NCBI GenBank assembly: GCA_018304545.1
Contig: JAGVVZ010000003.1
Coordinates: 32,987 to 96,986, forward strand
Source: Candidatus Aenigmatarchaeota archaeon
GTDB lineage: Archaea; Aenigmatarchaeota; Aenigmatarchaeia; CG10238-14
Direction of reading: 5' to 3'
DNA length: 64,000 bases
Numbering within the stretch: position 1 is the first letter of the stretch; each line of letters opens with the position of its first letter. The position numbers and the translations under genes were made by a program. The notes under the pieces are model-generated. The model was given only the letters and a program-made list of their open reading frames with translations. It searched no databases and had not been told where the DNA came from. Positions 7,759 through 60,936 of this stretch are shown one piece after another.

Positions 7759-7788
7759 ATTTATTTTTAGAAATTCAATTTGTTAATA

Positions 7789-30449: not shown

Positions 30450-32537
30450 TTATCTCTTCTTTTGCTCTCTCATTGCCTTTTGTCTGATCTCTTCGATCAT
30501 TTTCTTTCTTGCTTCTTCCATCTTCGGATCTGCTACTTTCTTCTGAACCTTTCTTTCTGCCTTAACTTCTTTCTGAACTGGCTCAGCCTTCACTTCTACG
30601 TAATCTTCATGAGCCGGCAAATAATCATCGACTTTATGTGCGCTGCCCTTTATTCTTGTTCCCCTTGGATAGAACTTGATTACCAATGCCAATCCTACCA
30701 AAGCAACAATTACATACCATCCTTTGGCCAATAATGTCGATGCAAACAAGAATGCACCTGTTGGCAGGCTTGATTTCTCTTCAGGGACTGTTGTTGCATT
30801 TACTGTAACTTGTTCGACTGTAGTTGTTGTTGCTACCGGTTTAGCTTTGACTATCAAATCAATGCTCTTCTCATATGTTGTTGTGCTTGAACCTGAAGAT
30901 GCCTGTAATGTGACAGCATATGTTTTTGCAATTGCCGTCTCTGGAACGTTAATCGTTAATGCGACTGGCTCACTTCCGCCATAAGCCAAACTATCAATCT
31001 TTGATGGTTCGAATGAATACCAAGTTGTCAATATGCCTTTAGCAGCAAACACTACATTATCCAAAGATGGTCTATGTTTCGTAGTGAATTTGCCGGAAAC
31101 TGTGACAGATGATCCTGCTTCAACTTCAGTTGATTTTGGAAAGTCGGTAAAGCCTGTTGTATCTGTTTCAGATCCCTTTGTAACTGTTAATCCACCACCA
31201 GATGAAGATCTGCTTGAGCTGCTGGATGAAGAGCTACTTGAACTTGATCCTCCTGAACTGCCGCCAGATGAGCCTCCACTGCTTCCGCCAGAGCTACCTC
31301 CTGATGACTGAGTTGTTGTGGTTGTCGTTGGCTCGCCTACCAGATATGCTGAGAAGCTCGTAACATTAGCTGTTATATAATCTCCGTCCAGAGTTGACGT
31401 GATCTTTGACCACTCTGAAGTGCAAACATTGGTATCTGGGTTGTAATTAGAACATTTGTACAAAGATATCTGGTTCTCGCTTCTGAATGAAAGATCCTTG
31501 TATTTCATTCTTAGATGAATGTTTGAAAATTCCACGCCGTTTGGCAGTTCAACATAAAATGCCCTGTAAACAGATAATGTGCTCAATGACGGCGAGACTG
31601 CATCTATTTTCAAATTGGCTTTTGTACCCAATGAGGATACGGTTGTATTTTTCAGCATGAAAATGAATTTGTCGTTGTCAAATCTGGCCTTGAAATCAAC
31701 CTTCGGGCTTGACGTGCTCATCGAACCCGTGCCGTTTATTGTCAGCGAAGACAAAACATTTGTTGTACCTGGAGACAATAAGTCAATATTCAAAGATCTT
31801 GAAACCTTCCCGTTTGTGACGTTCAAAGAAACGGATTGTGATGGGCCTGAGCATTGTCTCACCCCTCCAATAGACTTGCATACTCCTTTCGGACCGTATA
31901 CTTCCCTGCAGCAGAAATCACTGCATGATTCTGCAAATGTTGGATTGTTGCTGGTGCATGAATATTTTCTATAAACACCATTGTAGCAGCCATTCAACGT
32001 TCTCAAATCCTGACAATTGTCTGCATCTAACCCGCATGACATTATCGTGTTCTTGCACTCTCGAACAGGTTGATTGACTTCTGTTTCTATGAAGAAGTTG
32101 ATTGCACCGTCAGGGAGAGGCAGTCCGTTTTCACATGAACCGCTTAACAACAAAGTTCCTGCTTTTTCTCTTCTTATGTCGACATTCAAATTGAAAGGTG
32201 TTTTATCCTGGTTTGCTGCCATATTGATTTCTAATGGAAAAACGATATTCTTTAATGATGATGTCACATTTATTCTCAAGGTAATAGCCTGAGTATTGGA
32301 ATTTTTAATCTTCAAAGGATATTGGATTATGCCAGAGGCCTCGTCCGGAAAGTCGTTTGAATTGACTTTTATTATGCCTCCATAGTAGTTGACAGGCACT
32401 CCAAACTCATTGTATATTGTTGGATTGCCGCATGCTACTGACTCAGCGCTCTTAGTTACAAGGGAGAGTGAGACTATTAATGTTAAGAACGCCAATGCAA
32501 AAGTCGATATTAATAGTCTCTTCATGTTTTCTATCAC
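30450..32537 (-). CDS. Cys-rich cell-surface protein with (SSGG)n linker, LPTGAF+TM anchor and Lys-rich cytoplasmic tail
   Basis: Signal peptide. N-terminal module is paralogous to the 34398..36818 protein. SSGGSSGGSSGGSSGGSSGGSSSSSSSSSSSS linker. C-terminus LPTGAF-LFASTLLAKGWYVIVALVGLALVI-KFYPRG followed by a K/E-rich tail. Confidence 0.6.
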   Translation of the reverse strand: MIENMKRLLISTFALAFLTLIVSLSLVTKSAESVACGNPTIYNEFGVPVNYYGGIIKVNSNDFPDEASGIIQYPLKIKNSNTQAITLRINVTSSLKNIVFPLEINMAANQDKTPFNLNVDIRREKAGTLLLSGSCENGLPLPDGAINFFIETEVNQPVRECKNTIMSCGLDADNCQDLRTLNGCYNGVYRKYSCTSNNPTFAESCSDFCCREVYGPKGVCKSIGGVRQCSGPSQSVSLNVTNGKVSRSLNIDLLSPGTTNVLSSLTINGTGSMSTSSPKVDFKARFDNDKFIFMLKNTTVSSLGTKANLKIDAVSPSLSTLSVYRAFYVELPNGVEFSNIHLRMKYKDLSFRSENQISLYKCSNYNPDTNVCTSEWSKITSTLDGDYITANVTSFSAYLVGEPTTTTTTQSSGGSSGGSSGGSSGGSSGGSSSSSSSSSSSSRSSSGGGLTVTKGSETDTTGFTDFPKSTEVEAGSSVTVSGKFTTKHRPSLDNVVFAAKGILTTWYSFEPSKIDSLAYGGSEPVALTINVPETAIAKTYAVTLQASSGSSTTTYEKSIDLIVKAKPVATTTTVEQVTVNATTVPEEKSSLPTGAFLFASTLLAKGWYVIVALVGLALVIKFYPRGTRIKGSAHKVDDYLPAHEDYVEVKAEPVQKEVKAERKVQKKVADPKMEEARKKMIEEIRQKAMREQKKR

Positions 32538-34397: not shown

Positions 34398-36818
34398 CTA
34401 ACATCCATCAGCATTTCCGCATTGCACCCATCTGACTGTCCTTAAAAGCAAGGCGTCTCCATCTGATGTGAAACTGGTGAAAGGGTTGGATTTGTAAACC
34501 CATCCCACATAAGCATACCTGCCTCTCGTTCCTGATGCATCCACTTTAAACATCGTTGACGCTGTATTTGTCAGCAGGTTTGCTAAATTGGTTGATCCTG
34601 AATTAAGACGTGTTGATATCACTCCTGCTGTAATCGTATTAGAGTTAGTTACTTGAATTGTGCTGTTAAATGGTGATGTGATCGGATCTGCAACCATCTT
34701 CTTAATATTTTTCCCCGTCTCCTTGAATCCTGAATAAGATGATACGTATCCAAACGTCTTTCCCGCTCTGACATATTGATAATCAGGAACTTCCAAAAAT
34801 CCCAATCTTCCTGTTTTATGCTTCATGAAAGGTGCTGTGTACGACCTCAATGCGCAACCTTTGCCTGCGGATGAGCAGACCATGAAATCATAATTATCCA
34901 ATGCGGATAGAGTCCATTTAGTTTGTGACTTGCCGACAACTGTGTATCCTTCACTCCTCAGCCACTCCATCAATCTTAGCTCGCTTATTTCGCTGCATGA
35001 ATTATCACCGCAAATAAAAGCAACTTTCTGTTGTATCAAAGGCAGGATCGTGATCGTGGTGGAATATGGATCTGATTCCAGTTCTCCATCGTTCACTTTC
35101 AATATGACAGTATAATCTCCCTGATTTGCATAAACATGAGTGATGATCGGTGTGGTTGTCCATCCTGATGTGGAGCCGTCGCCGAAATCCCAGAAATATT
35201 GCAATGATGCATTCTCAGGATCTTCGGATGAACTCGCGTCAAACGTGATGCTTTGACCGACATATGCAATAGACGATGGAATGGTTGTATAAGAAGCTTG
35301 AGGTGGATCATTGCCTTGTGAGTTGCTAAGACATGAATCGCCACAAGATGCCCACGTAAATATTCTATCCAGCAGATCGTTTCCTTCTTGAGTCATAGCT
35401 CGCATCGAAGATTTGTAGAACCAGCCGACATAAACAAATCTTCCCCTAGACACAGATTCTGGAACTTTGAATAAAGTTGATTTGCCTGCACTCTCTTCAA
35501 CGTCTGCCAAATCTTTAACAGACGATTTCAAAAAGTAATCGGCTAAAACGACAAACACTGTATCGCTATTAAAGATCGGCACGCGAGATCCGAAAGGTTT
35601 TGTAACAACATCTTTCGTATCTGTTACGATCAGATCGGATCCTGTAGTCAGGACCGTATAGAAGTTAGAAGTATAATCAAACTTGAATGCCTGGCCAGCA
35701 TATCTGTAATCCGCCACTTCCACAAACGGCATGCCTTGGAATTTGTGCTTATTATAGATTACAGATCCCGGCTCTGCCTTGCATGCCGTGTTCTCATCCG
35801 TACATACCATCACATCATAACCGTCTAGCTCGGATCCCAACCAAGCATTATATGCCTTGCCTGTCACAAACCATCCTTTTGATGTGAGCCAATTCTTCAA
35901 ATCCCCTTCTATGCCTTCCGTGCATGTGTTATCCTTGCATATCAACGCGATCTTTCCTTTGAACGATGATGGATCCAAACAGCTACCATCAGAACAAATG
36001 TTTGTTCCACAGCTCTCCTGAAGAACTAAATGCTTGCATCCGTCATTGCCCACAGTACATGAATAGACGTTATTGCCGTCGCACTGATTTGATGTGAACG
36101 AGCACTCGTCTACACAACCGGCTGGACCTACGCAAGTGCTGATGCCATTGATGCTTTGGCACGAAGCCTGGCTACCATAATACTGTTGGCAACAGAAATT
36201 ACTGCAAGACTGGGAATATTTCGGCTTGTTCTGCGAGCATGAATAGACTCTGTTGTAGCCCTGGTTACAGCCGTCATACTGCGTCAGATCTTGACAATCC
36301 GGATATACCCCGCAAGAGAAGCGATTGTTGGAGCAGGTTTGCGGTGCTGCGTTGCCCCGGCCTTGCAAATTGAATGATATGAAACCTTCAGGTACTGGCA
36401 CGCCGTTTTGGCAAGTGCCTGCTATTGCTAATGAACCTTGTTTGCTTCCGTCATCTACGTAGACATTCAGCGTAAAATTCCTTCTCTCTTTCGAAGCTAA
36501 CGTAACTGTAGTACCGTAAACATAATTGAACAGGCTGGACGATGGATCTATTTCGAATGTCATACTTTGCAAGCTTGGATTATACGCGGTCAGGTTGAAT
36601 GGAACCAGTTTGTAAATGGAAGGGAATTTCGTGCCATTGACAAAAATCACTCCCCCATAGTAATTGACCGGTGCACCAAACTCATTGTATATCAGCGGAT
36701 TGGAGCATGCCACTGCCTTCGCTGAGTTCATAGATAGCAGTGCTATAATAGAAAACACTGCGAATAGCAGAACGATATTTTTAATGTTCGTAAACCTAAC
36801 AAGATCTAGATTTTTCAT
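34398..36818 (-). CDS. Cys-rich secreted surface protein with PKD domain
   Basis: Signal peptide. N-terminal VACSNPLIYNEFGAPVNYYGG module. More than 50 Cys residues. PKD signature YFWDFGDGSTSG...HVYANQGDYTVILKVND. Confidence 0.6.
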   Translation of the reverse strand: MKNLDLVRFTNIKNIVLLFAVFSIIALLSMNSAKAVACSNPLIYNEFGAPVNYYGGVIFVNGTKFPSIYKLVPFNLTAYNPSLQSMTFEIDPSSSLFNYVYGTTVTLASKERRNFTLNVYVDDGSKQGSLAIAGTCQNGVPVPEGFISFNLQGRGNAAPQTCSNNRFSCGVYPDCQDLTQYDGCNQGYNRVYSCSQNKPKYSQSCSNFCCQQYYGSQASCQSINGISTCVGPAGCVDECSFTSNQCDGNNVYSCTVGNDGCKHLVLQESCGTNICSDGSCLDPSSFKGKIALICKDNTCTEGIEGDLKNWLTSKGWFVTGKAYNAWLGSELDGYDVMVCTDENTACKAEPGSVIYNKHKFQGMPFVEVADYRYAGQAFKFDYTSNFYTVLTTGSDLIVTDTKDVVTKPFGSRVPIFNSDTVFVVLADYFLKSSVKDLADVEESAGKSTLFKVPESVSRGRFVYVGWFYKSSMRAMTQEGNDLLDRIFTWASCGDSCLSNSQGNDPPQASYTTIPSSIAYVGQSITFDASSSEDPENASLQYFWDFGDGSTSGWTTTPIITHVYANQGDYTVILKVNDGELESDPYSTTITILPLIQQKVAFICGDNSCSEISELRLMEWLRSEGYTVVGKSQTKWTLSALDNYDFMVCSSAGKGCALRSYTAPFMKHKTGRLGFLEVPDYQYVRAGKTFGYVSSYSGFKETGKNIKKMVADPITSPFNSTIQVTNSNTITAGVISTRLNSGSTNLANLLTNTASTMFKVDASGTRGRYAYVGWVYKSNPFTSFTSDGDALLLRTVRWVQCGNADGC

Positions 36819-36964
36819 GTTTTATTAATAGGAGAAACAATATAACTCCTTATTCTGAATGGAGATAGAAAAAGGTTTTATACAAAATGAAAATTATCAA
36901 AAGACATTAGTTCATATTTTAATGTTAATTACATTTTGAAAGAATCAGAAAAATCCTCATTCAT

Positions 36965-37013
36965 AAAAAAATAAAAGATTAGCGCTAACCTTCCCGCGGT
37001 TATATTGCTCTTG
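36965..37013 (+). repeat. cassette-boundary repeat copy 1 (A-rich tract + ctaaccttcccgcggttatattgctctt)
   Basis: One of four copies of an A-rich tract followed by the 28-nt core TAACCTTCTCGCAGTTATATTGCTCTTA. This copy has 3 mismatches to the core. Confidence 0.7.
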
Positions 37014-37065
37014 TTATTGTATAGGTATAGAAAACTTTATATATTAGATATCATGATTTTAAATT

Positions 37066-37575
37066 ATGTTAGAAAGGAATGTTGCATTGAAGACGAGGGG
37101 ATGGAATACTATTAGTGATATCTCCGATAAACTGCATGTCAAGATAAGCACTGCTTATGTTTATGTTCATAGACTGGATAAGATGGGTTTTGTGATTCAG
37201 AGGATAAAGAAGCCAAGAGGCACCATGTATTTGATTGATTCAATTCCTGGCCTATCCAAAAATCGCGGCATGTTAGAAGATACCGATATTGTTGTATCTG
37301 AAATGGAGTTTGCAAAAAACAAAATTTCAAATGAACATAAAATAGCTTATTTTCTCTCACAATACAAGAAGGAAGAAAACAAGAGATTTTACGATTCTGC
37401 AAGGACAATTATCAGATCGATTAAAAACTGGAAGAAGCTGTACAGATATCTCAAAGCTTACGAGGTTTTGGGTGAGTTCAAGATGCTCTATCAGGAAGCA
37501 AGGAGAGAAATGAAAAAAATCCCCAGGATGCCGGACAGATATAAAAAATTGTTGAGTGTTGACCATGCTGGCTGA
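37066..37575 (+). CDS. putative HTH DNA-binding protein (first gene of a two-gene module)
   Basis: 169 aa. N-terminal ISDISDKLHVKISTAYVYVHRLDKMGFV resembles a wHTH. Overlaps the downstream nucleotidyltransferase gene. Confidence 0.4.
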   Translation: MLERNVALKTRGWNTISDISDKLHVKISTAYVYVHRLDKMGFVIQRIKKPRGTMYLIDSIPGLSKNRGMLEDTDIVVSEMEFAKNKISNEHKIAYFLSQYKKEENKRFYDSARTIIRSIKNWKKLYRYLKAYEVLGEFKMLYQEARREMKKIPRMPDRYKKLLSVDHAG

Positions 37576-38218
37576 TAAAGAATTTCTAGAAAAACTGTTA
37601 GACTACATAGGCAAGAAATTAAAACATGAGGTGAGAGGATTGCTCATAGGCGGAAATGCAATGATGTTTTATGATTTGAGAGGTCAAACCAAAGATTTGG
37701 ACATCGTTCTTTATGATAAAAATGACGTGACCGGTATAATCCAAATAATCAAAAATCATCCTTTGTTCAGAAAAACTGAGATTACAAAAAAACTTCCGTA
37801 TAAAATAAAGCCTGAATTGAAAGAGGGAAACCCAACTGTATTTTCAAATGGCGATATGCCGAGGTTTGATTTGTTTTACAAAAATGTCTTTTCCATTGAC
37901 ACAGAGCAAATGCATCAACTTGCAAAAAGAAGCATCAGGTTTGATTTGCTTACTCTAAAACTAGTTGAACCAGAACACCTGATATTTTTGAAAGCTGTTA
38001 CTGGAAGATCCGTAGATAGAGAAGATATAGTCAGATTGACGAAAAATCTGGACATAAATTGGAATCTGTTCTTGCAGTTTGCTCTGGATTATTATGAAAA
38101 GGACGAAAAAGCGGTTTGGTTTGTACTAGATACACTTTATGACATATATGAAAAGGAGAACTTGATACCTGAGTTTGTAATAAAAAAAATAGGAAGCAAA
38201 TTCGACCTAAAGAAATAA
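37565..38218 (+). CDS. minimal nucleotidyltransferase-fold protein
   Basis: GGNAMMFYDLRGQTKDLDIV matches the GS-X9-DXD nucleotidyltransferase signature. The ORF track uses a GTG at 37556. Confidence 0.5.
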   Translation: MLADKEFLEKLLDYIGKKLKHEVRGLLIGGNAMMFYDLRGQTKDLDIVLYDKNDVTGIIQIIKNHPLFRKTEITKKLPYKIKPELKEGNPTVFSNGDMPRFDLFYKNVFSIDTEQMHQLAKRSIRFDLLTLKLVEPEHLIFLKAVTGRSVDREDIVRLTKNLDINWNLFLQFALDYYEKDEKAVWFVLDTLYDIYEKENLIPEFVIKKIGSKFDLKK

Positions 38219-38302
38219 TACCGCTTGTGGTTGGTAAGTTTATTGTTCACAGTTTATAAACATTTTGTTCATAAAATGAAAACACTTTAGAATTACATAA
38301 TT

Positions 38303-38350
38303 AAAAAAGAAAAAATCAAACTTAACCTTCTCGCAGTTATATTGCTCTTA
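38303..38350 (+). repeat. cassette-boundary repeat copy 2
   Basis: aaaaaagaaaaaatcaaacttaaccttctcgcagttatattgctctta. Confidence 0.75.
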
Positions 38351-38427
38351 GCACCTCGTAAAATTTATTCCTACAGTCCGATTGAAAAGAGACTTCATGA
38401 GTAAAATTTAGAAATAATGTCCCGTCC

Positions 38428-38706
38428 TTATATTTTTGCAAAAGACTCTGCTCTTTTTATAATTTCCTCTCTTTTATTCGGGTTCAAAGAAATTTGCAAC
38501 CCATAAGAAGTTGGTTTGGACAATATTAATCCATCTTTTATTAATTCTCTAGTCATATCTACATATCTTCCACTCAAGTGTGCTGGTATTCCTTTTTTCA
38601 CTGATTCTATTGCCGTGTGCTTCCCTCCCCAGAATTTTTTCCAATGTAGTTTGAACAGAATGTGATTCTTGATTTGCTCAACTGTCGGAGAACCTTCTGC
38701 TGACAT
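38428..38706 (-). CDS. small putative winged-helix protein
   Basis: 92 aa with a wing-like stretch (AHLSGRYVDMTRELIKDGLILSKPTSYG). Confidence 0.35.
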   Translation of the reverse strand: MSAEGSPTVEQIKNHILFKLHWKKFWGGKHTAIESVKKGIPAHLSGRYVDMTRELIKDGLILSKPTSYGLQISLNPNKREEIIKRAESFAKI

Positions 38707-38796
38707 CTAAATATATTTAGCATTACCATATTAAAAGTTTATTTAAACATACTTTCAAAGATTAATTTTAAATACATATAAAATATAAGATAATTC

Positions 38797-39123
38797 ATGA
38801 AAGAAGAATCTGTATTAATAGAGTATTTTGGGGACAATCCGGTAATAAGAATAACCGATTTTTTGATAGAAAATAAAATATTCGACTATTCCAAGAAACA
38901 AATTATGGAAGAAACTGGTTTATCCAAAGCCACATTGTTCAAATACTTCCCCAAAATTGAAAAGGCTGGCATAACAAAAGCATCGAGGAAGTTTGGAAAA
39001 ACAACTCTATACAAGATTAATGATGAAAACCCTGTTGTCAAAAAAATAATAGAACTTGGGCTAGAATTAGCAAACCAGGGAGTTCTGAGTTCTCAAAGAA
39101 GACACACACCTATCAGAACTTAG
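38797..39123 (+). CDS. winged-helix transcriptional regulator
   Basis: 108 aa. HTH EETGLSKATLFKYFPKIEKAGI plus a wing KFGKTTLYKIN. Confidence 0.5.
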   Translation: MKEESVLIEYFGDNPVIRITDFLIENKIFDYSKKQIMEETGLSKATLFKYFPKIEKAGITKASRKFGKTTLYKINDENPVVKKIIELGLELANQGVLSSQRRHTPIRT

Positions 39124-39165
39124 AAACAAAACGAACTAAGAAAGGAAATTTTTCATAATCTTAAT

Positions 39166-39204
39166 CAAAAAAAAGAAAAAGTCAAACTTAACCTTCTCGC
39201 TGTT
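39166..39204 (+). repeat. cassette-boundary repeat copy 3 (3' half degenerate)
   Basis: aaaaaaaagaaaaagtcaaacttaaccttctcgctgtt, then diverges from the core. Confidence 0.6.
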
Positions 39205-39298
39205 TTCTGACAAAATTTCCCCTTAAATCTAAAGCTATGAAAAGTTTATATATACATAATATATATATGGTATACATAAACAATATGAGGCAGTAATA

Positions 39299-39535
39299 AT
39301 GGTTCAGGCTGTTGTAAAAATAAATGAAAGAGCAAACAGGGTTCTGAATATCGTAAAAGCTAAATATGGTTTAAGAACCAAGTCCGAAGCAATAAACATA
39401 GTGACTGAAAGGTATGAAAGCCAGCTTCTAGAACCAGAATTAAGACCCGAATACATAAAAAAATTGAGAAGAATAGAGAAAGAGAGCACTCTATCTGAAG
39501 AAGAGTTTAAAAAAAGACTGAAAGCTGAATTTTGA
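39299..39535 (+). CDS. ribbon-helix-helix-type antitoxin
   Basis: 78 aa. Overlaps the downstream RelE-like gene by 1 nt (tgATG). The N-terminal beta strand followed by helices fits a CopG/RHH fold. Confidence 0.45.
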   Translation: MVQAVVKINERANRVLNIVKAKYGLRTKSEAINIVTERYESQLLEPELRPEYIKKLRRIEKESTLSEEEFKKRLKAEF

Positions 39536-39798
39536 TGCTTGTTGTTGAATATTCCAAAGAACTGACTAGAAAATTGGAAAAATTACAAAAGAAGGATAAA
39601 ACTGCCTTTGAATTTATTATCAGAAAAATAAAAGAAATCCGTGAACAACCTGAACATTATAAAACATTAAGCCACGATATGAAAGGTTACAGAAGAGTTC
39701 ATGTAATGAAATCCTTTGTTTTGGTTTTTAGAATCGATTACGACCAAAATAAACTGATCTTTATTGATTTTGATCATCATGATAAGATATACAAATAG
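39535..39798 (+). CDS. RelE/ParE-family toxin
   Basis: The C-terminal YRRVHVMKSFVLVFRIDYDQNKLIFIDFDHHDKIY is a RelE/StbE hallmark. 88 aa. The ORF track uses a TTG at 39532. Confidence 0.6.
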   Translation: MLVVEYSKELTRKLEKLQKKDKTAFEFIIRKIKEIREQPEHYKTLSHDMKGYRRVHVMKSFVLVFRIDYDQNKLIFIDFDHHDKIYK

Positions 39799-39827
39799 AA
39801 AACAATCTGGAATTCCGTGTCTCAGTC

Positions 39828-39888
39828 AAAAAAAGAAAAGAAAAAAGAAAAAACCAAATTTAACCTTCTCGCAGTTATATTGCTCTTA
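39828..39888 (+). repeat. cassette-boundary repeat copy 4 (overlaps the stop codon of the 39875 minus-strand gene)
   Basis: aaaaaaagaaaagaaaaaagaaaaaaccaaatttaaccttctcgcagttatattgctctta. The last 5 codons plus the TAA stop of the minus-strand gene lie inside the core. Confidence 0.75.
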
Positions 39889-40999
39889 CTAAGATGTAGA
39901 CGCTACCTTCTGTAAAGCTACCGACACATGGAACTGGGTATGTCAATCTGAATTGACATTCAGCTGTGTGTTGGTTCAACAATCTTGTTGGTGCTGCTGT
40001 TTCTCTTATTAATGGCATAGCACCTGCACAACTTGCTGATGTACAACCTGCCGCGTTGTTTTTGTTTGTTATATCATTGAAGTTATTGTCTGCATCTGTA
40101 CCAACTTTACATCTGTAGTCCATTCCTTGTGGCGCTACTAATGTACCTGCTGTTTCAACGTCCAATACATTGCTGACTGGACATTTTGCTGCAAAGTGTG
40201 TTGGGTCTGTTAGATCACTGGCTGCTATGTAAGCTGCTAGGTCTACACCACCTTCTGCTAGGTTTGTGACCAACAATTTATTCGTAGAATAAACTGTTTG
40301 TCCTGGTACACCAGATTCATATTGAATTGCTGGAGCACCGTTGTTTGTGTCTAAGAACAACAGAACTTCTGGGTTGAAAAACCAAAGTTGTGAGATACCG
40401 TCTGTTGAGACAGATCCACTTTGATCGAAGGCTTCGATGTTAACTGTCATCTCACCTACCCAAGATGGTTCTACTGTCCATATACACTCAAAGATTTTAT
40501 CAAATCTATCGTCCAAACCTGCTAGATCTGTTGGACCTACTGGTTGTAATTGTCCGAAATCAACGTTGTGATTTACATTGAACATATTCCAGACTCCTAT
40601 TCCAGTTCCCACACCAACATAGCTTGCTGTAACATCGTTACATTTTACTTCTGCTTCGTCGTCGACTGTTACGTGTGCTGTCAAAATATCAACAGCGCCG
40701 TTCAAGTCTCTAACTCCGATCAATTCTGCGACTTGTTCACCAGTGAATGCATATTCATTGGCTCTGAGTTCAGAGCTTAAATCTACACATCCATTTGTCT
40801 GAAGATCAAATCCGTTTGGTCTTGATCCACCTTGGCCGTTGTCTGCACAAATATCAAAGACTTTCTTCAAAAGATAAACCTTTGGCTCAACGTTACCAGG
40901 TGTTGCTTCGTTAGGGAAGCTGTCTGCTAGTGCTACTGGTGTAGCTGCTAATACTAATACTGCGAGGGCTAAAACTAATGCTTTATTATAAGCTTTCAT
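39875..40999 (-). CDS. secreted Thr/Val/Asn/Ala-rich protein, probably an abundant envelope protein
   Basis: Signal peptide MKAYNKALVLALAVLVLAATPVALA. Codon usage is strongly biased (gct/ggt/act/gtt), unlike neighbouring genes, which suggests high expression. No TM anchor. Confidence 0.5.
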   Translation of the reverse strand: MKAYNKALVLALAVLVLAATPVALADSFPNEATPGNVEPKVYLLKKVFDICADNGQGGSRPNGFDLQTNGCVDLSSELRANEYAFTGEQVAELIGVRDLNGAVDILTAHVTVDDEAEVKCNDVTASYVGVGTGIGVWNMFNVNHNVDFGQLQPVGPTDLAGLDDRFDKIFECIWTVEPSWVGEMTVNIEAFDQSGSVSTDGISQLWFFNPEVLLFLDTNNGAPAIQYESGVPGQTVYSTNKLLVTNLAEGGVDLAAYIAASDLTDPTHFAAKCPVSNVLDVETAGTLVAPQGMDYRCKVGTDADNNFNDITNKNNAAGCTSASCAGAMPLIRETAAPTRLLNQHTAECQFRLTYPVPCVGSFTEGSVYILVRAI

Positions 41000-41913: not shown

Positions 41914-42243
41914 TTATCTAGTTAAATTCTCCAATCTCTTAACTAACTCTTCAAAAACTAATTTTTTCTTTTCTGGCGTAAGACTGAATAAAATTTTTGA
42001 AATCATATGTTTTGAAATCGTAAAAATATAATTTAGTTTTATAACACTATCTTTGGCTGCTCCGTCTTTTTTAGTCAATGGTATGCCTTTCATTTCAATA
42101 TTGCTTGTTACACCGGCAACAACGATATTATCAAATTCTTCAAAAAGAACAATAACTGGTCTTATCTTAATTTCAAAGGTATCAGTAAATTGGACTTTAG
42201 CTAGGACAACATCTCCGGATTTATACACTTTCCCATGCCTCAT
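41914..42243 (-). CDS. MazF/PemK-family toxin
   Basis: GDVVLAKVQF...IRPVIVL...NIVVAGVTSN follows the PemK/MazF SH3-like barrel pattern. 109 aa. Confidence 0.55.
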   Translation of the reverse strand: MRHGKVYKSGDVVLAKVQFTDTFEIKIRPVIVLFEEFDNIVVAGVTSNIEMKGIPLTKKDGAAKDSVIKLNYIFTISKHMISKILFSLTPEKKKLVFEELVKRLENLTR

Positions 42244-42448
42244 CTTCCTTATTATCCCACAATTCTTTCATTTTATGTTGTTGTATTTTATGTAAAAATT
42301 CATCATACTGATTCATTGATTTTAATTTCTTCAAGACGGTTATAACCTTCATTATAATTTCATTATACGTTTCCCTAGGATATTCCTTCATTTCTTTCAA
42401 AGATTTGACTACATTTTTGTCTAACTGTATCGTTGTAACGTTAGCCAT
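42221..42448 (-). CDS. putative cognate antitoxin
   Basis: 75 aa. Upstream of the toxin and overlapping it by 23 nt. N-terminus MANVTTIQLDKNVVKSLK. Confidence 0.4.
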   Translation of the reverse strand: MANVTTIQLDKNVVKSLKEMKEYPRETYNEIIMKVITVLKKLKSMNQYDEFLHKIQQHKMKELWDNKEDEAWESV

Positions 42449-55983: not shown

Positions 55984-58900
55984 TCATTTCTTCTTTTTTG
56001 GGACTTCGGCGGTATTCATTGCAACAAGTCTCCATATAATAAGACCTACTATAATTAGAACAGCGCCTATGGCAATCATCCATTTCATCTGGGATACTGT
56101 AAGCTGAGGCTTTGGCAATGATTCTGGCAATTTAATCTCTGGCAATGTGGGGATCGTTCTTCTCACAGTAGTTGATGTCGTGACAACTGGCATAACAGTT
56201 GTTGTGGGCAATGACATCAATGTCGTAGTTGTCGCTGCAGTTTCGTCTGACGTTATGACAAACGTAGATAACCCAGGAGACTCTGCCTCATATTCATATG
56301 TATCGTTAACAGCCGACAGTATTGTTGTCTTCAATTTCTGCCATTCACCGTCAGCATATCTATTCAGCACAACCTTCATCGGATCAACATTATTAGCTGT
56401 CAGCCATGATTTGTTAACAGCAAATTTTAATTTGGCCATGTTTAAATTATCATCAGTCAGCCCTGTCTTCGTAATTTCCATATATTGGTACACTTTACCA
56501 GTAGTCTCTCTTGTTATAGAAACTGGTTTGTTATCCAACCTCTCAACAGTCATTCTAACTGTGTTAGCTTTATTCTTGACTTCAAGATGCATCTCCACAA
56601 GACCAACACCTTTTGTAGTGACAGTCCATTTATTTACTTTATCCGGAGAAACTTCAGAGAATACTGTACTAACCTTTCTCACCGCGACTGCTTTTGCTGT
56701 AGCACCTCCACCGCCCCCTCCACCGCCACTACTGCTTGTGCTAGCAACTGTGGTGGTAGTGGCTGAAGTAGAACTCACTTTATACGTAGAGAAGCCTAGT
56801 GATATTGGAATCGTGCATGTTGTTGATGACGCGCCAAAAACGCACGTAGCATATGATGAAACATCTACGCAATTGCTGCCTTGATCATCGCATTTCTCTA
56901 TCTTGCTTGCTGTTGTTCCGAACGTAAGCACTACGGAATCTACACCTAAATCATAGAGCATTTTCTGCCATTTGGTTGAATTAACACCGAGAAGCTTGTT
57001 GGTTGAATCGCAAGTGAATGCATTCTCTAGTTCTAATGTTTTTGCTTTCATCAAATCTGCACCAACGAAGGTGATATTATATCCTGTTGCAGGACAGTTG
57101 ACTGTAATATTAATACTCTTTCCTGTCGTGGCATTGGTTTTCGTAGCTGTGGAAAAGTCAGAATTATCCATCCCTAGATCCGGTATGTCTACACTGAATC
57201 CTTCATCTACTTCCATCTTGAACAAGAAGTCGTTCTCAAAATCATCTGTCGTGAAGTTCGAACATGCACTGACAGCACAATTATTTGAAGGATCGCAAAC
57301 TCTCAGCTTATAGAAGTAAGATGTTGCATTAGCTAAATTATATCCTAACGCGTTCGGGTTGCCCTCGAAATTATCCGCAGCAGCTGCATGGAATGGTTTG
57401 TAATCATCAAAGGTGTAACCCGGCATACCCAAGTCATTAAGCGCTCTGTAGCCATTGGCAGATGTAGTATTGCTGCATGTACTATCTGACTTGAAGAATT
57501 GGACAGTACCGTTGGCAGGTTCATCTGTATTGAATACGAGGAAAGCGCCGTCAGTATAGACATCAATCTGAGTATAAGTCATCTTTGGAGATGTATTGTC
57601 ATCTGCGTCTGCAAGAAAGTTCATCGTGCCTCCGCATTCTGGTTTAGGATCACATTGGACATCGTCACAATCTACAGCACCATCTCCGTCATCATCTTTA
57701 TCATTAATGCAGTCTTCTGTCGGCACATAACCGAACTGCTTAACGAACTTGCAATCTGGATCTTTATCTGATGTGATACCATCATCATCCAAATCAGCAC
57801 CTGGACACGTACAGCATTCAAATTTGAAGTCTACGGAACCTGGTGTGTAGAAAGACGGGCCCACAGCATCAGAAGGAACTGTTAAATTATGAACAGCATC
57901 TGCCATTGTTCCAAATACTCTCATTGTTTTGGTCTTATTATATAATGTAGAGAATTTTCCGAGATCTTCCTTATCAACTGCTATCATCGGTCCATTGATC
58001 TCGCCACACATTAATTGTCTGAAACCTGTTGCAGCAATATTTGTCTGAACCCATGTTTGATTAGAGCATAAACTGAATGATCTTGTCTCTTTCAATTCAC
58101 TATCGGCCCATTCACCCACGTATCTTAACCTAAACTCAAATCCAAGATGAGTATTGCCTAAATCATCAGTGACATTACAACCATTTGTATTAACTCCATC
58201 TGTATCCAAGAATACATTCATTTTTGTTGTGTTCCTCCCGGTACCCGTAACACCAGACTGAGTAAACATACCATTGCAGATAGCAGAATCTCTGAAGCTA
58301 ACCACTCCAAGACCGAATCCGTATGCATCGCCCATATCTTTCATTCCATATCCACAAATATCAACTTCCTCTTCTTTACCGCTCTCAGGACATTGATCAT
58401 CTCCCAACATGGCAGGCGGACTTGGATCTATTTTTTCAAACATTTTCATCGTTCCTTTGTCATTGCACCATCCCTGATTGATGCCTACGCCAGGACCGTT
58501 TGGATCTGGGAACCATTGACATGTGAAAGCGGCATCACAAGCTGTCTTGTTGCCGTCACGATTAGGACAATCACCCATAATAATTGTTGGTTCACAGTGA
58601 GTTTCTTGTAATGTACAATTAGCATTTGCAGAACATTCTGCATTTGTTATGTCACGACTAAAGCAAATAGGATCACACCATCCGCCATCTGGTGAAAATT
58701 CATCTTCTATCCAAACACATGTTGGGTTCTCCCCACAAGCTGTTTCGTTGTCATCATGTACAACACAATTGCCGAATATCTTGGATTCACAGAATTGTTG
58801 AATAAAGCCACCAAATCCTTGCTCAACAGTCCATGTACAGAGAGGATTTGCGGCACATGAAGTTTGATTAAATAGCGAGAAACAAGGTTCTTCCCTTGTC

Positions 58901-60936
58901 TTGTTAATTTCACAAAATGGCTGACCACCTAGTTGAGTAACGTTCTTCCAAGCACAACCAGTGGCTCCTTGACAACCTACTTGAGCATCAAATGTCCAGC
59001 AATTCTCTCCAGGCATACCACAAAATTCTTCACCCCATTCTGTTTCAACCCAAATACAATTGCCTAATGGTGTTGACGTAGCAGTGCAAAGTGTCTGATT
59101 ATTTGAATATTGCTGACAACTTCCAAATGATGCACCACCACAAAATTGATCGAAAGTACAGTCACCATCTGAGCAGTCTGTATTACCATCATTATCATTA
59201 TCTGTTCCATCAAAGCATATCTCTCCAGTGAATCCTTCTGGCTTGCAGAAGAAATTAGAATTGTCCCATTGGCATGTTGAATCGCTGGCTGCACAAGATG
59301 ACGGATCATAGCAGTTAAAGCAACTGTCCGAACATGTCTTTTTGTTAATATCATCACACCATCCAATCTCAGGATTCAAAACGTCTGTAACCCATTTACA
59401 GTTTGCGTTTTCACCGCATTTTGTTTCAGGATCATTCATGAAACTGCAACTTTTACAATCATTATCGCAGCTGCCTCCACCGTAATAAAAGTCTTGAGCA
59501 TAATTACACCAACCATAGCCGTTAAATGAAAACGGATCAGATTGGAAATTGCAGTAACCCAATTCAGAATTCTCGCAAGCTTGCTGTGCTGCTGTTCCGT
59601 TGGGCCATTGGTTGCCATTCTCATCATGTTCGCACGCCCAACATGCATCATCACAATCTTCATAGCCTACACCAAAACCAAACTCGCACCATCCCTCGTT
59701 TTGTGTGATTCCGTTTTCAATATAAGTTTCTTCTTTCCAAGTACCACCGCCTGCAATACATGAATCTGAATCTTTTATATCAAAGAAGTTTCCTGTCGTG
59801 CCCGACTCGAATACAGATCCCATATCAAATTGACATTCATTCTCGTTTGAATTCCAATTGCATGGCATGAAATACAAATCTTTCAATTGAGAACATGCTG
59901 TTTGATTTTGAGCGTCATCGCAAAATGAGACTGGTGGTTGGCAAGTTGTTTTTTCTGATTGTGTCAATACACCAGTGGTACAGGCAGTGCCGTTCCATTT
60001 GCAATTTTGAAGAGGACCACAGTTGCATGTTCTTTCTAGTCTTATATCAGTACATTCCATTGTATCATTAGCAAAGCCTTGCGCTTCAAAGCCGGCTGCT
60101 GATGGATCATGCCCTTCGCACCAACCAATCTGTTTGTTTTCGCAGAAATGACCATCTTGAGCAACAAATGTAGAATTACAATAAACGCAACCTGTTACAT
60201 TTCCACAAATTGTAGGTGAATTATCGGCAAACCAACACGCTTGGAAGAATCCGGCATTAAAACCACCTGTAAAGAATCCTCCACCTCCGCCACCAGAATC
60301 AGAACCAGTAAACGAGCACATTTGAGAAGTTGAATTCCACTGTCCGCCCACTTCTAGACATGAGTCATCATCATTAAATGCAGTAAAACCTTGATCTTGA
60401 CACGTTGATCCGGACCATTCGCATGGCATACCAAAACTACTTTGGGCTAAATCACATCCTGCCTCTGTTGTAATTTGGGTGCAATACTTCTGAGAGCAAC
60501 ATCCTAGAGGATTGGGACAGAAAAATCCTGTTTGCCAATCGCAAAGACCGCTCAACTGTGACTCGCAATTTGTTTCATTAGTACCATCAAAATTCCAGCA
60601 TCCCTTCTTCTCGCAACAACCAGCGTTATTCCAACACCACGGGTTTTGATTTTTATCGTTTGGTTTCCATTGGCAACTCGCATCTGCTTCGCATCCTACT
60701 TGGTTTCCATCCAAACTCCAGCATCCACCTGTAAAACCACCATTGATGCAACATCCAACAGGATCGTCACAGAAAGGATCCGTATCTGCTGGTGACCAAA
60801 CACAACCTGCGGCAGATCCACAATTAGCCTGATTTCCGTTGTGATCAAAGCATGTCGGCGCAGCAACGTAATTAAAGGATAAGAGAATTCCAAACAATGT
60901 TGTTAGTAAAAACAATGCACTAATTTTTTTATCCAT
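55984..60936 (-). CDS. giant (1650 aa) Cys-rich cell-surface protein with C-terminal TM anchor
   Basis: Signal peptide. Over 120 Cys in repeated C..W/C modules. GGGGGGFF and GGGGGGGGATAKA tracts. Asp-rich putative Ca sites. C-terminus WMIAIGAVLIIVGLIIWRL + KKKK. Confidence 0.65.
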   Translation of the reverse strand: MDKKISALFLLTTLFGILLSFNYVAAPTCFDHNGNQANCGSAAGCVWSPADTDPFCDDPVGCCINGGFTGGCWSLDGNQVGCEADASCQWKPNDKNQNPWCWNNAGCCEKKGCWNFDGTNETNCESQLSGLCDWQTGFFCPNPLGCCSQKYCTQITTEAGCDLAQSSFGMPCEWSGSTCQDQGFTAFNDDDSCLEVGGQWNSTSQMCSFTGSDSGGGGGGFFTGGFNAGFFQACWFADNSPTICGNVTGCVYCNSTFVAQDGHFCENKQIGWCEGHDPSAAGFEAQGFANDTMECTDIRLERTCNCGPLQNCKWNGTACTTGVLTQSEKTTCQPPVSFCDDAQNQTACSQLKDLYFMPCNWNSNENECQFDMGSVFESGTTGNFFDIKDSDSCIAGGGTWKEETYIENGITQNEGWCEFGFGVGYEDCDDACWACEHDENGNQWPNGTAAQQACENSELGYCNFQSDPFSFNGYGWCNYAQDFYYGGGSCDNDCKSCSFMNDPETKCGENANCKWVTDVLNPEIGWCDDINKKTCSDSCFNCYDPSSCAASDSTCQWDNSNFFCKPEGFTGEICFDGTDNDNDGNTDCSDGDCTFDQFCGGASFGSCQQYSNNQTLCTATSTPLGNCIWVETEWGEEFCGMPGENCWTFDAQVGCQGATGCAWKNVTQLGGQPFCEINKTREEPCFSLFNQTSCAANPLCTWTVEQGFGGFIQQFCESKIFGNCVVHDDNETACGENPTCVWIEDEFSPDGGWCDPICFSRDITNAECSANANCTLQETHCEPTIIMGDCPNRDGNKTACDAAFTCQWFPDPNGPGVGINQGWCNDKGTMKMFEKIDPSPPAMLGDDQCPESGKEEEVDICGYGMKDMGDAYGFGLGVVSFRDSAICNGMFTQSGVTGTGRNTTKMNVFLDTDGVNTNGCNVTDDLGNTHLGFEFRLRYVGEWADSELKETRSFSLCSNQTWVQTNIAATGFRQLMCGEINGPMIAVDKEDLGKFSTLYNKTKTMRVFGTMADAVHNLTVPSDAVGPSFYTPGSVDFKFECCTCPGADLDDDGITSDKDPDCKFVKQFGYVPTEDCINDKDDDGDGAVDCDDVQCDPKPECGGTMNFLADADDNTSPKMTYTQIDVYTDGAFLVFNTDEPANGTVQFFKSDSTCSNTTSANGYRALNDLGMPGYTFDDYKPFHAAAADNFEGNPNALGYNLANATSYFYKLRVCDPSNNCAVSACSNFTTDDFENDFLFKMEVDEGFSVDIPDLGMDNSDFSTATKTNATTGKSINITVNCPATGYNITFVGADLMKAKTLELENAFTCDSTNKLLGVNSTKWQKMLYDLGVDSVVLTFGTTASKIEKCDDQGSNCVDVSSYATCVFGASSTTCTIPISLGFSTYKVSSTSATTTTVASTSSSGGGGGGGGATAKAVAVRKVSTVFSEVSPDKVNKWTVTTKGVGLVEMHLEVKNKANTVRMTVERLDNKPVSITRETTGKVYQYMEITKTGLTDDNLNMAKLKFAVNKSWLTANNVDPMKVVLNRYADGEWQKLKTTILSAVNDTYEYEAESPGLSTFVITSDETAATTTTLMSLPTTTVMPVVTTSTTVRRTIPTLPEIKLPESLPKPQLTVSQMKWMIAIGAVLIIVGLIIWRLVAMNTAEVPKKKK

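What the first reader, a model, noticed from the sequence alone, without database searches (positions are those of the whole stretch)
36965..39888. Repeat-delimited array of small gene cassettes (TA and regulator modules), integron-like but without an integrase
Four same-orientation copies of an A-rich tract plus the 28-nt core TAACCTTCTCGCAGTTATATTGCTCTTA sit exactly between three compact modules:
- HTH + nucleotidyltransferase (1.3 kb)
- two divergent wHTH genes (0.85 kb)
- RHH + RelE (0.68 kb)

Each module is bracketed by a copy of the repeat. The array lies between two surface-protein genes. Gene-repeat-gene-repeat organisation with TA cargo is what chromosomal integron cassette arrays look like. 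The layout is equally consistent with serial site-specific integration of tiny elements at one att site. Neither has been characterised for archaea in this form, and no recombinase is present within the window. The minus-strand reading of each repeat is followed by a T-tract (terminator-like). The third copy is half-degenerate, consistent with decay.
Basis: seen in the sequence. Interest (0 to 1): 0.7.

Follow-up and report, generated by a model that had tools for sequence, protein, structure and literature searches.

The report
Toxin-antitoxin cassette array at gene end
Just after the stop codon of a surface-protein gene in a DPANN archaeon (Aenigmarchaeota), three tiny toxin-antitoxin or regulator gene cassettes have piled up, each separated by a copy of that gene's end and terminator; related genomes carry different cassettes in a different order, so the cassettes move although no recombinase is in sight.

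Summary
Four same-orientation copies of a 48-nt repeat lie at 36966-37013, 38303-38350, 39169-39216 and 39841-39888. They bracket three compact modules, and none is expected by chance.

It holds the last codons, the stop codon, a 10-nt core AACNGCGRGA and the T-tract terminator. The other copies are duplicates of that gene end.

Comparison with relatives shows an insertion hotspot with mobile cassettes:
- One relative with 59% G identity has G directly next to the PKD gene (empty site).
- Two relatives with 80-81% G identity carry different arrays at the same site. The NTase and RelE cassettes are shared, and their order is swapped in one relative with orientation kept.
- Another Aenigmarchaeota contig has the same architecture at an unrelated gene.

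The repeats are not integron attC sites (no hairpin, no R boxes between cassettes) and not dif-like sites. No recombinase is encoded in the 64 kb.

Best reading: repeated insertion of integrase-less cassettes at one site formed by a gene's 3' end. The enzyme is unknown. I rate it a new variant of a known kind, of moderate to high interest.

The parts
39875..40999 (-). Gene G: 374-aa secreted or surface protein. Its stop codon and 3' UTR form the attachment site.
   Evidence: ORF. There are 109 homologues, all without Pfam domains, with a strongly conserved C-terminus. A source names one of them as Aenigmarchaeota.
39841..39888 (-). Repeat copy H4. It is the functional 3' end of G: two bases of the Val codon, then Arg-Ala-Ile, the TAA stop, the core AACTGCGAGA, AGGTTAAATTTGG and the start of a long T-tract that runs on to about 39828.
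   Evidence: The orthologous sequence follows G in L004 and L022.
39299..39798 (+). Cassette 1: DUF2683 antitoxin-like gene (39299-39535) plus YafQ/RelE/ParE-family toxin (39532-39798). The genes run antiparallel to G.
   Evidence: Pfam and NCBIfam hits. The same cassette in L004 is 87-88% identical.
39169..39216 (-). Repeat copy H3. Only the core, right half and T-tract (39169-39204) are shared with the other copies. The remainder (minus-strand GTCAGAA, 39205-39211) belongs to the RelE cassette.
   Evidence: L004 Hd carries GTTAGAAAACTGCGAGA at the same junction.
38428..39123 (.). Cassette 2: divergent pair of a 92-aa gene (38428-38706, minus strand) and a 108-aa HTH gene (38797-39123, plus strand). 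It is absent from the L004 array.
   Evidence: ORFs. Weak HTH_7 hit for the 108-aa protein, none for the 92-aa protein. L004 gene list.
38303..38350 (-). Repeat copy H2 (exact 28-nt core).
37066..38218 (+). Cassette 3: 169-aa HTH protein (37066-37575) plus 217-aa DUF2204/DUF6036 nucleotidyltransferase (37565-38218). The genes run antiparallel to G.
   Evidence: Pfam. The same cassette in L004 is 81-84% identical. The same two-gene module sits at unrelated sites in other Aenigmarchaeota.
36966..37013 (-). Repeat copy H1, the most distal and most divergent copy (3 mismatches in the 28-nt core). It is followed by the promoter region of the PKD gene.
   Evidence: By eye, its T-tract and ATGAATGAGGA flank resemble L004 Hd and its flank. 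PKD-upstream homology was aligned.
34398..36818 (-). 806-aa PKD-domain surface protein: the conserved distal boundary of the insertion site.
   Evidence: Pfam PKD. The orthologue follows the array in L004 and follows G directly in L025.

Best explanation
The region is a tandem array of three small cassettes that encode no integrase (RelE-type TA; a pair of small regulator-like genes; HTH plus nucleotidyltransferase). They have accumulated at one attachment site. That site is the sequence immediately 3' of the stop codon of surface-protein gene G: a 10-nt core AACNGCGRGA followed by the 3' UTR and T-tract terminator.

Each insertion leaves G with an intact stop codon and terminator, and places a further copy of the site on the far side of the cassette. 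This produces the pattern gene end - cassette - gene end - cassette.

Recombination between the directly repeated sites can excise a cassette as a circle carrying one site, and can reinsert it at any copy. That accounts for cassettes changing order while keeping orientation, and for related genomes holding different sets.

Shown here: the anatomy, the empty site, the polymorphism in content and order, a junction position at the core that is conserved across genomes, and a second example at another gene.

Inferred: that the crossover lies in or next to the core; that circular intermediates exist; and that the catalyst is a recombinase acting in trans and encoded outside this window. Host recombination on the 30-90 nt of identity is the main alternative and is listed as a rival.

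The TA cargo would then stabilise the array once it is inserted.
For: 1. The repeat is the gene's own end. Copy 4 contains the stop codon of G and its T-tract.

2. Empty site. In L025 (G 59% identical) the stop codon of G is followed by a single T-tract and, 185 nt later, the PKD gene. GTDB-representative relatives also show plain terminators and no repeated gene end next to G.

3. Polymorphism at the same site.
- L004 (G 81% identical): G - [DUF7557+ParE] - [NTase+HTH] - [RelE+DUF2683] - 175 aa - PKD, with the core AACTGCGAGA at each of the four junctions between G and the 175-aa gene.
- L022 (G 80% identical): the stop codon of G, the repeat, then the spacer that precedes the NTase cassette in the window.

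4. The NTase and RelE cassettes swap order between the window and L004 but keep their orientation relative to G. This fits excision and reinsertion, not inversion.

5. Nine repeat copies from three genomes share the invariant pattern AAC.GCG.GA.G.T. The sequence left of the core is specific to each cassette and conserved across genomes (RelE: GTYAGAA; NTase: CAATATAA), so the junction sits at a fixed position.

6. The cassettes are 81-88% identical between genomes, similar to the flanking genes at 73-85%. The repeats within the window are up to 96% identical to each other, which suggests ongoing recombination among them.

7. Generality. L013 has the 3' coding end of an unrelated gene repeated between HicAB, MNT-HepT and HTH-NTase(+UPF0175) cassettes. 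One copy is an intact 30-codon in-frame alternative gene end.

8. Precedent. Archaeal elements integrate into 3'-distal regions of protein genes and form tandem arrays by re-using a site (PMC6563490).
Against: - No recombinase gene was found in the 64-kb window, in 18 kb of L001, in 11 kb of L004 or in 9.6 kb of L013.
- The repeats show no inverted-repeat binding-site architecture.
- The part right of the core is specific to the genome, not to the cassette: AGGTTAAGTTTG in the window against TGATYGGATTTC inside L004. A simple fixed-crossover model does not predict this. It needs gene conversion or homologous exchange among copies.
- The extent of duplication varies, from about 32 to 48 nt here and from 46 to 93 nt in L013.
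- No circular or excised form has been observed.
- Solo HTH-NTase modules elsewhere mostly lack flanking repeats, so these modules can also move in other ways.
Confidence: 0.55

Rival explanations
1. Same architecture, but built by the host's homologous recombination and not by a site-specific enzyme. A circular or linear DNA carrying a cassette plus a 30-90 nt copy of the gene end recombines Campbell-style with the chromosomal gene end and duplicates the homology. Recombination between copies then excises, reorders and homogenises them.
For: - The length of the duplicated segment varies (32-48 nt here, 46-93 nt in L013).
- The repeats have no recombinase-type inverted arms and no recombinase is nearby.
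- The right halves of the repeats are homogenised within a genome, as expected for gene conversion.
- In L013, R0 and R1 are identical and R2 and R3 resemble each other.
Against: - Unrelated cassettes (RelE and ParE') join the repeat at exactly the same base, just before AAC of the core. This is more typical of a site-specific cut.
- Between L004 Ha and the internal L004 copies only about 18 nt are shared, which is very short for homologous recombination.
- This model does not explain how each cassette first acquired a copy of the gene end.
Confidence: 0.25
2. The repeats are functional terminator modules with no role in mobility. Cassettes entered the G-PKD intergenic region by unrelated illegitimate events, and the terminator was duplicated incidentally or selected to insulate G and each cassette.
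For: - On the G strand every copy ends in an oligo-T tract, the archaeal termination signal (the signal itself is established knowledge).
- Copy 4 must terminate G, and copy 2 lies 77 nt downstream of the minus-strand 92-aa gene.
Against: - Most cassette genes are on the opposite strand, where the repeat reads as an A-tract and cannot terminate them.
- The repeats include G's last codons and stop codon, which a terminator does not need.
- Order swaps with conserved junctions and the coding-sequence repeats in L013 are not explained.
- The core does not recur next to other genes in the 64 kb.
Confidence: 0.1
3. The units are decayed remnants of larger integrase-bearing viruses or plasmids that integrated one after another at the end of G. 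Only the addictive TA modules and the att scars survived deletion.
For: - Tandem integration at the 3' ends of protein genes is known for archaeal elements that carry an integrase (PMC6563490).
- TA modules resist loss (general knowledge).
Against: - The same compact cassettes with the same end sequences occur in two genomes about 15% diverged. Independent decay would not stop at identical points.
- No pseudogene debris lies between genes and repeats.
- The HTH-NTase module has the same tight boundaries, starting about 10 nt upstream of its TATA box, at six other loci.
Confidence: 0.07
4. It is an integron cassette array lacking its integrase (a CALIN), with unusually short attC sites.
For: - Gene-repeat-gene-repeat layout with TA cargo.
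- CALINs are reported in Aenigmatarchaeota MAGs (PMC9668308).
- The plus strand contains ACTTAAC (matching RYYYAAC) and GTTATAT (near GTTRRRY), 9 nt apart.
Against: - Neither strand folds better than shuffled sequence; window copies have z-scores of +0.2 to +1.4.
- The only R''...R' pair spaced 50-150 nt apart in the array lies inside the NTase coding sequence.
- The repeat is the end of the neighbouring gene, and the right halves differ between genomes.
- No IntI is present.
Confidence: 0.03

Closest known systems
Tandem (accreted) integrated elements at the 3' end of a gene. [quoted passage not shown]
   Same: - Direct repeats that copy the target gene's 3' end flank each unit.
- The site is re-used, giving arrays.
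- An empty site exists in relatives.
- Like CIMEs, the units carry att sites but no integrase.
   Different: - The units are 0.7-1.3 kb and hold a single TA or regulator module.
- None of the three or four units in either array has an integrase.
- Cassettes are reshuffled between genomes as in an integron.
- No helper element has been identified.
Sedentary chromosomal integron cassette arrays and CALINs, including the archaeal ones (PMC9668308).
   Same: - Arrays of promoter-bearing TA and other small cassettes separated by similar repeats.
- Order and content vary between relatives.
- An integrase may be absent locally.
   Different: - The repeats are not attC: no hairpin and no R/L boxes.
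- The repeats derive from a host gene's stop codon and terminator.
- No attI or IntI.
Acinetobacter pdif (dif) modules (PMC13141974, PMC6449649).
   Same: Small modules, often TA, bounded by short sites and shuffled between replicons by a recombinase that is not encoded in the module.
   Different: - Those sites are 11-6-11 XerC/XerD inverted-arm sites. From memory, they alternate in orientation and lie mostly on plasmids.
- Here there is no inverted-arm structure, all copies are direct, and the array is chromosomal.
e14 / phage 21 integration into icd, where the element supplies a substitute 3' end for the gene (cited from memory, not checked here).
   Same: The L013 array keeps an intact in-frame alternative 3' coding end (R3), as expected when incoming DNA supplies or displaces the gene's end.
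   Different: - Those are full prophages with an integrase.
- In the window only 11 coding nt plus the stop codon are duplicated, and the core lies after the stop codon.

Membership tests
Integron cassette array / CALIN | attC sites between cassettes: R'' (RYYYAAC) and R' (GTTRRRY) boxes 50-150 nt apart | tested here: not met
   only one such pair on each strand of 36819-39875, and it lies inside the NTase coding sequence (about 37830-37970), not between cassettes.
Integron cassette array / CALIN | attC folds as an imperfect hairpin when single-stranded | tested here: not met
   both strands of three window copies fold at -1.1 to -3.6 kcal/mol, with z-scores of +0.2 to +1.4 against shuffles. 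One L004 copy reaches z = -2.4 through a short local stem only.
Integron cassette array / CALIN | IntI tyrosine recombinase next to the array (absent by definition in CALINs) | tested here: not met
   No recombinase family was hit by any ORF of 250 aa or more, or by the cassette ORFs, except the 1650-aa ORF 55984-60936, which was not scanned. None appears in the gene lists of L001, L004 or L013.
Integron cassette array / CALIN | Scores above threshold with the IntegronFinder attC covariance model | not testable with these tools
   That model is not in Rfam. The Rfam gathering-threshold scan of the window gave no hit.
Xer/dif-type modules (pdif-like, IMEX-like) | Site made of two roughly 11-bp imperfect inverted arms around a 6-bp (4-10 bp) spacer (PMC2958812) | tested here: not met
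   the best arm complementarity is 6-9 of 11 in 12 copies. Eleven of the 12 are no better than shuffles. The exception, L004 Hb (9 of 11), was reached by 14 of 300 shuffles.
Xer/dif-type modules (pdif-like, IMEX-like) | Alternating orientation of the sites flanking modules | tested here: not met
   All four copies are direct repeats. The alternating-orientation criterion itself is recalled from memory.
Tandem site-specific integration at a gene's 3' end (iMGE / CIME-like accretion) | Each unit is flanked by direct repeats identical to the 3' end of the target gene | tested here: met
   Copy 4 is the real end of G; copies 1-3 repeat it. The same holds in L004 and, at another gene, in L013.
Tandem site-specific integration at a gene's 3' end (iMGE / CIME-like accretion) | Empty site in a related genome | tested here: met
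   L025: stop codon of G, one T-tract, then the PKD gene 185 nt later.
Tandem site-specific integration at a gene's 3' end (iMGE / CIME-like accretion) | Units present, absent or reordered between close relatives, with breakpoints at the repeats | tested here: met
   Window, L004 and L022 compared.
Tandem site-specific integration at a gene's 3' end (iMGE / CIME-like accretion) | A cognate integrase, in one of the units or elsewhere in the genome | tested here: inconclusive
   Absent from the window and from the fetched flanks. The rest of the genome could not be searched.
Tandem site-specific integration at a gene's 3' end (iMGE / CIME-like accretion) | Excised circular form and restored empty site detectable | not testable with these tools
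   This needs read-level metagenome data or experiments.
Type II toxin-antitoxin module (cargo of cassette 1) | Small antitoxin gene overlapping a RelE/ParE/YafQ-fold toxin gene | tested here: met
   ParE_toxin 34.9 bits (cut-off 23), YafQ TIGR00053 79.8 bits (below its 87.25 cut-off), DUF2683 27.9 bits (cut-off 27). The two genes overlap by 4 nt.
CRISPR array | Repeats of about 25-40 nt separated by non-coding spacers of similar size | tested here: not met
   Spacings are 672-1337 nt and are filled with genes.

The most novel reading that the evidence does not exclude
DPANN archaea of the Aenigmarchaeota have a cassette-capture system that works like an integron but is unrelated to integrons. 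Promoter-bearing TA and regulator cassettes of 0.7-1.3 kb are inserted, excised and reshuffled at a site made from the stop-codon-proximal 3' UTR or 3' coding end of a host surface-protein gene. The catalyst would be a dedicated recombinase that has not been identified and is encoded elsewhere, or the host recombination machinery working on very short homology.
Probability: 0.3. Interest if true: 0.8.

Novelty: new variant of a known kind. Interest (0 to 1): 0.62.

Why it matters
How toxin-antitoxin modules move between genomes is largely unknown outside integrons, plasmids and transposons. This locus offers several things that make the question testable:
- defined cassette ends;
- a defined 10-nt junction core;
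- an empty site in a relative;
- three allelic arrays at one site;
- a second example at an unrelated gene.

These are the materials needed to look for circular intermediates and for the enzyme. If a dedicated recombinase exists, this would be an integron-like gene-capture platform in genome-reduced DPANN archaea. If host recombination is enough, it shows that 30-90 nt of a gene's end can seed a self-perpetuating cassette array.

The locus also marks a variable spot next to a conserved cell-surface protein gene in these archaea.

Tried and rejected
- tRNA or tmRNA target: none in the window.
- Known RNA family: no Rfam hit at gathering thresholds.
- attC hairpin: rejected.
- dif-like inverted arms: rejected.
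- Bacterial-type promoter and terminator scan: counts no higher than in shuffles, and uninformative for an archaeon.
- The repeat in public collections:
  - The L+core pattern found nothing in GTDB representative genomes or IMG/VR, and only the same sequence in JGI metagenomes (L003).
  - The core plus right half, the L004 repeat and the L013 repeat found nothing in IMG/VR.
- NTase relatives on viral contigs: none.
- Defence-system models (PADLOC): only weak Csa3/CasR-type HTH similarity.
- The MazF/DUF7557 TA pair upstream of G has no flanking direct repeats above chance.
- The 92-aa and 78-aa genes next to the NTase module in L015 are unrelated to the window genes of the same length.
- L024, a relative of the L013 target gene, has no array. 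L023 is too short to tell.
- I tried to fit a single fixed-crossover model, with the right half travelling either with the following or with the preceding cassette. Neither version explains why the right halves are specific to the genome. This is left unresolved.


Full report
**1. The observation**

The 28-nt core TAACCTTCTCGCAGTTATATTGCTCTTA occurs at 38323-38350 and 39861-39888 (exact) and at 36986-37013 (3 mismatches). No match is expected in shuffled sequence. Its first 12 nt add a fourth site at 39189-39200.

The repeat finder groups four 48-nt direct copies at 36966-37013, 38303-38350, 39169-39216 and 39841-39888. Looser patterns find no further copy in the 64 kb.

The three intervals hold the following genes:
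- a 169-aa HTH protein plus a 217-aa DUF2204/DUF6036 nucleotidyltransferase;
- a divergent pair of 92 and 108 aa, of which only the 108-aa protein has a weak HTH hit;
- a DUF2683 gene overlapping a YafQ/RelE/ParE-type toxin gene.

Two independent assemblies, from ENA and Logan, show the same arrangement, so this is not an assembly artefact. NCBI names the nucleotidyltransferase as coming from a Candidatus Aenigmarchaeota MAG.

**2. What the repeat is**

The 374-aa ORF on the minus strand (39875-40999), called G here, ends inside copy 4. Read on the minus strand, the repeat is ...GTA AGA GCA ATA TAA CTGCGAGAAGGTTAAATTTGG followed by a long oligo-T run. That is the last codons of G, its stop codon, a short 3' UTR and an archaeal-type T-tract terminator. 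Copies 1-3 are therefore duplicates of a gene's end.

G has a signal-peptide-like N-terminus and 109 homologues with a strongly conserved C-terminus. None has a Pfam domain.

**3. Comparative evidence**

(a) Empty site. In L025, whose G is 59% identical, the stop codon is followed by one T-tract and the PKD-domain gene starts 185 nt later. In the five GTDB representative loci that include the end of G, the gene is followed by a T-rich stretch without a copy of the gene end nearby. In L007 a second copy 5 kb downstream looks like the end of a paralogous gene.

(b) A different array at the same site. L004 (NCBI GCA_964372465.1, G 81% identical) reads G - [DUF7557+ParE] - [NTase+HTH] - [RelE+DUF2683] - 175-aa gene - PKD gene. 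AACTGCGAGA is present at each of the four junctions between G and the 175-aa gene.

(c) A third arrangement. In L022 (G 80% identical) the stop codon of G and the repeat are followed by the spacer that precedes the NTase cassette in the window.

(d) The NTase and RelE cassettes are shared by the window and L004. They are in swapped order but in the same orientation relative to G. DNA identity of the cassettes is 81-88%, close to that of G (85%) and the PKD gene (73%). The cassettes are therefore about as old as the flanks and have been reordered, gained and lost since.

(e) The junction. An alignment of nine repeat copies from three genomes leaves AAC.GCG.GA.G.T invariant, and the core begins 0-3 nt after the stop codon of G.
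- Left of the core, the sequence belongs to the cassette on the G side and is conserved across genomes: GTYAGAA after the RelE cassette and CAATATAA after the NTase cassette. This is why copy 3 looks half-degenerate; it has not decayed.
- Right of the core, the sequence is specific to the genome. It is AGGTTAAGTTTG plus a T-tract in all internal window copies, and TGATYGGATTTC plus a T-tract plus ATGAGAAC in the internal L004 copies.
- The copy next to G has the same type and the same long T-tract in all three genomes.

**4. Generality**

The HTH-NTase pair is a compact module whose 47 detected homologues all come from metagenomic or MAG sources; the few that carry a name are labelled Aenigmarchaeota. 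It occurs alone at unrelated sites. One example sits between isoprenoid-pathway genes (polyprenyl synthetase, a hydrolase, then a mevalonate-decarboxylase-like gene and GHMP kinases) in L019.

Homology always begins about 10 nt upstream of the module's TATA box. In L021 the module is flanked by an imperfect direct repeat that includes the TATA box of the next gene. The aligner reported 19 nt; I extended it by eye to about 32 nt.

In L013, from another Aenigmarchaeota metagenome contig, the 3' coding end of an unrelated secreted protein is repeated three more times. The copies lie between the HicA-type, MNT-HepT and HTH-NTase(+UPF0175) cassettes and after the last of them. One copy (R3) is an intact 30-codon in-frame alternative C-terminus with its own stop codon. 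It matches an orthologue's end at 73 of 90 nt but the current end at only 66 of 90 nt. This is the signature of incoming DNA supplying or displacing a gene's end.

**5. What it is not**

- Integron attC. Neither strand of the repeats folds better than shuffles. The only RYYYAAC...GTTRRRY pair with attC-like spacing lies inside the NTase coding sequence.
- dif/Xer site. There are no 11-bp inverted arms beyond chance (criterion from PMC2958812), and all copies are direct.
- tRNA-linked element, known RNA family or CRISPR array.
- General promoter or terminator motif. The core does not recur elsewhere in the window.
- Recombinase nearby. None is detectable among the cassette ORFs or the scanned ORFs of 250 aa or more; one 1650-aa ORF (55984-60936) was not scanned. 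None appears in the gene lists of L001, L004 or L013.
- Viral copies. The repeat, its variants and the NTase are absent from IMG/VR contigs.

**6. Mechanism**

The simplest account is repeated insertion at one attachment site placed immediately after the stop codon of G. Each event keeps the stop codon and terminator of G intact and leaves another copy of the site beyond the cassette. Recombination between direct copies can then excise, reinsert and reorder cassettes.

Three things are established: the architecture, the empty and occupied alleles, and the fixed junction position. Three things are inferred: the crossover position, the circular intermediates and the catalyst.

Two catalysts remain possible:
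- A site-specific recombinase acting in trans. This is favoured by the identical junction base for unrelated cassettes.
- Host homologous recombination on 30-90 nt of identity. This is favoured by the variable repeat length, the lack of binding-site symmetry and the homogenised right halves within each genome.

A strict fixed-crossover model does not explain the genome-specific right halves, so some gene conversion among copies is needed in either case. The other readings (terminator duplication only, decayed large elements, CALIN) fit less well, for the reasons given under the rival explanations.

**7. Relation to known systems**

[quoted passage not shown] Archaeal integrons have been reported, including in Aenigmatarchaeota (PMC9668308). 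Modules without an integrase that a host recombinase shuffles are known as pdif modules in Acinetobacter (PMC13141974, PMC6449649). Integrase-less elements bounded by att sites are known as CIMEs (from memory; the review PMC5704250 was retrieved by search but not read).

This locus combines features of each:
- attachment at a gene end, as in integrated elements;
- tiny promoter-bearing TA cassettes and reshuffling, as in integrons and pdif modules;
- no integrase, as in CIMEs and CALINs.

It fails the site-defining tests for integrons and for dif modules. The literature searches did not turn up a description of such arrays.

**8. Verdict**

I rate the locus a new variant of a known kind. Interest is 0.62, because the locus provides defined substrates for finding out how small TA cassettes move in DPANN archaea.

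Noticed in passing
window 41914-42448 (minus strand): A second TA pair lies two genes upstream of G: a DUF7557 antitoxin-like gene (42221-42448) and a PemK/MazF toxin gene (41914-42243). It has no flanking direct repeats above chance. The first cassette of the L004 array also uses a DUF7557 antitoxin, there paired with ParE.
   Followed up: partly
L013 865-4075 (JGI 3300033148, Ga0366832_1018849): The same architecture occurs at an unrelated gene. The 3' coding end of a secreted protein is repeated between HicA-type, MNT-HepT and HTH-NTase(+UPF0175) cassettes. One copy is an intact in-frame alternative C-terminus of 30 codons.
   Followed up: partly
L021 2530-3850; L019 7462-8702: The HTH-NTase module also occurs alone. 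In L021 it is flanked by an imperfect direct repeat that contains the TATA box of the next gene (19 nt from the aligner, about 32 nt when extended by eye). In L019 it sits between a hydrolase gene and a mevalonate-decarboxylase-like gene in a cluster of isoprenoid-pathway genes, with no detectable repeat.
   Followed up: partly
window 30450-32537 and 34398-36818 (minus strand): The 695-aa and 806-aa surface proteins are paralogous over roughly their first 230 residues (for example VACGNPTIYNEFGVPVNYYGG against VACSNPLIYNEFGAPVNYYGG). In L004 the 5' ends of the two orthologues share an 86-nt stretch at 90% identity, which hints at gene conversion between them.
   Followed up: no
window 30450-32537 (minus strand): The 695-aa protein contains a long low-complexity run (TTTTTTQSSGGSSGGSSGGSSGGSSSSSSSSSSSSRSSSGGG) ahead of an NPCBM_assoc/NEW3-type domain and a C-terminal membrane anchor.
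   Followed up: no
L004 4304-4831 (minus strand): A 175-aa ORF with no family hit lies between the last repeat copy and the PKD promoter in L004 and is absent from the window. No repeat copy follows it, so it entered or left by a different route than the cassettes.
   Followed up: partly
L007 about 13980: In a more distant relative a second copy of the G-type gene end and terminator lies 5 kb downstream of the first. It looks like the end of a paralogous surface-protein gene and not a cassette junction.
   Followed up: no
window 8454-9554: A DUF460 protein (118.9 bits) lies directly after an ERCC4/HhH nuclease gene (7780-8457), with a Hef-like helicase gene further upstream (4914-6455). This is a DNA-repair gene neighbourhood unrelated to the array.
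   Followed up: no
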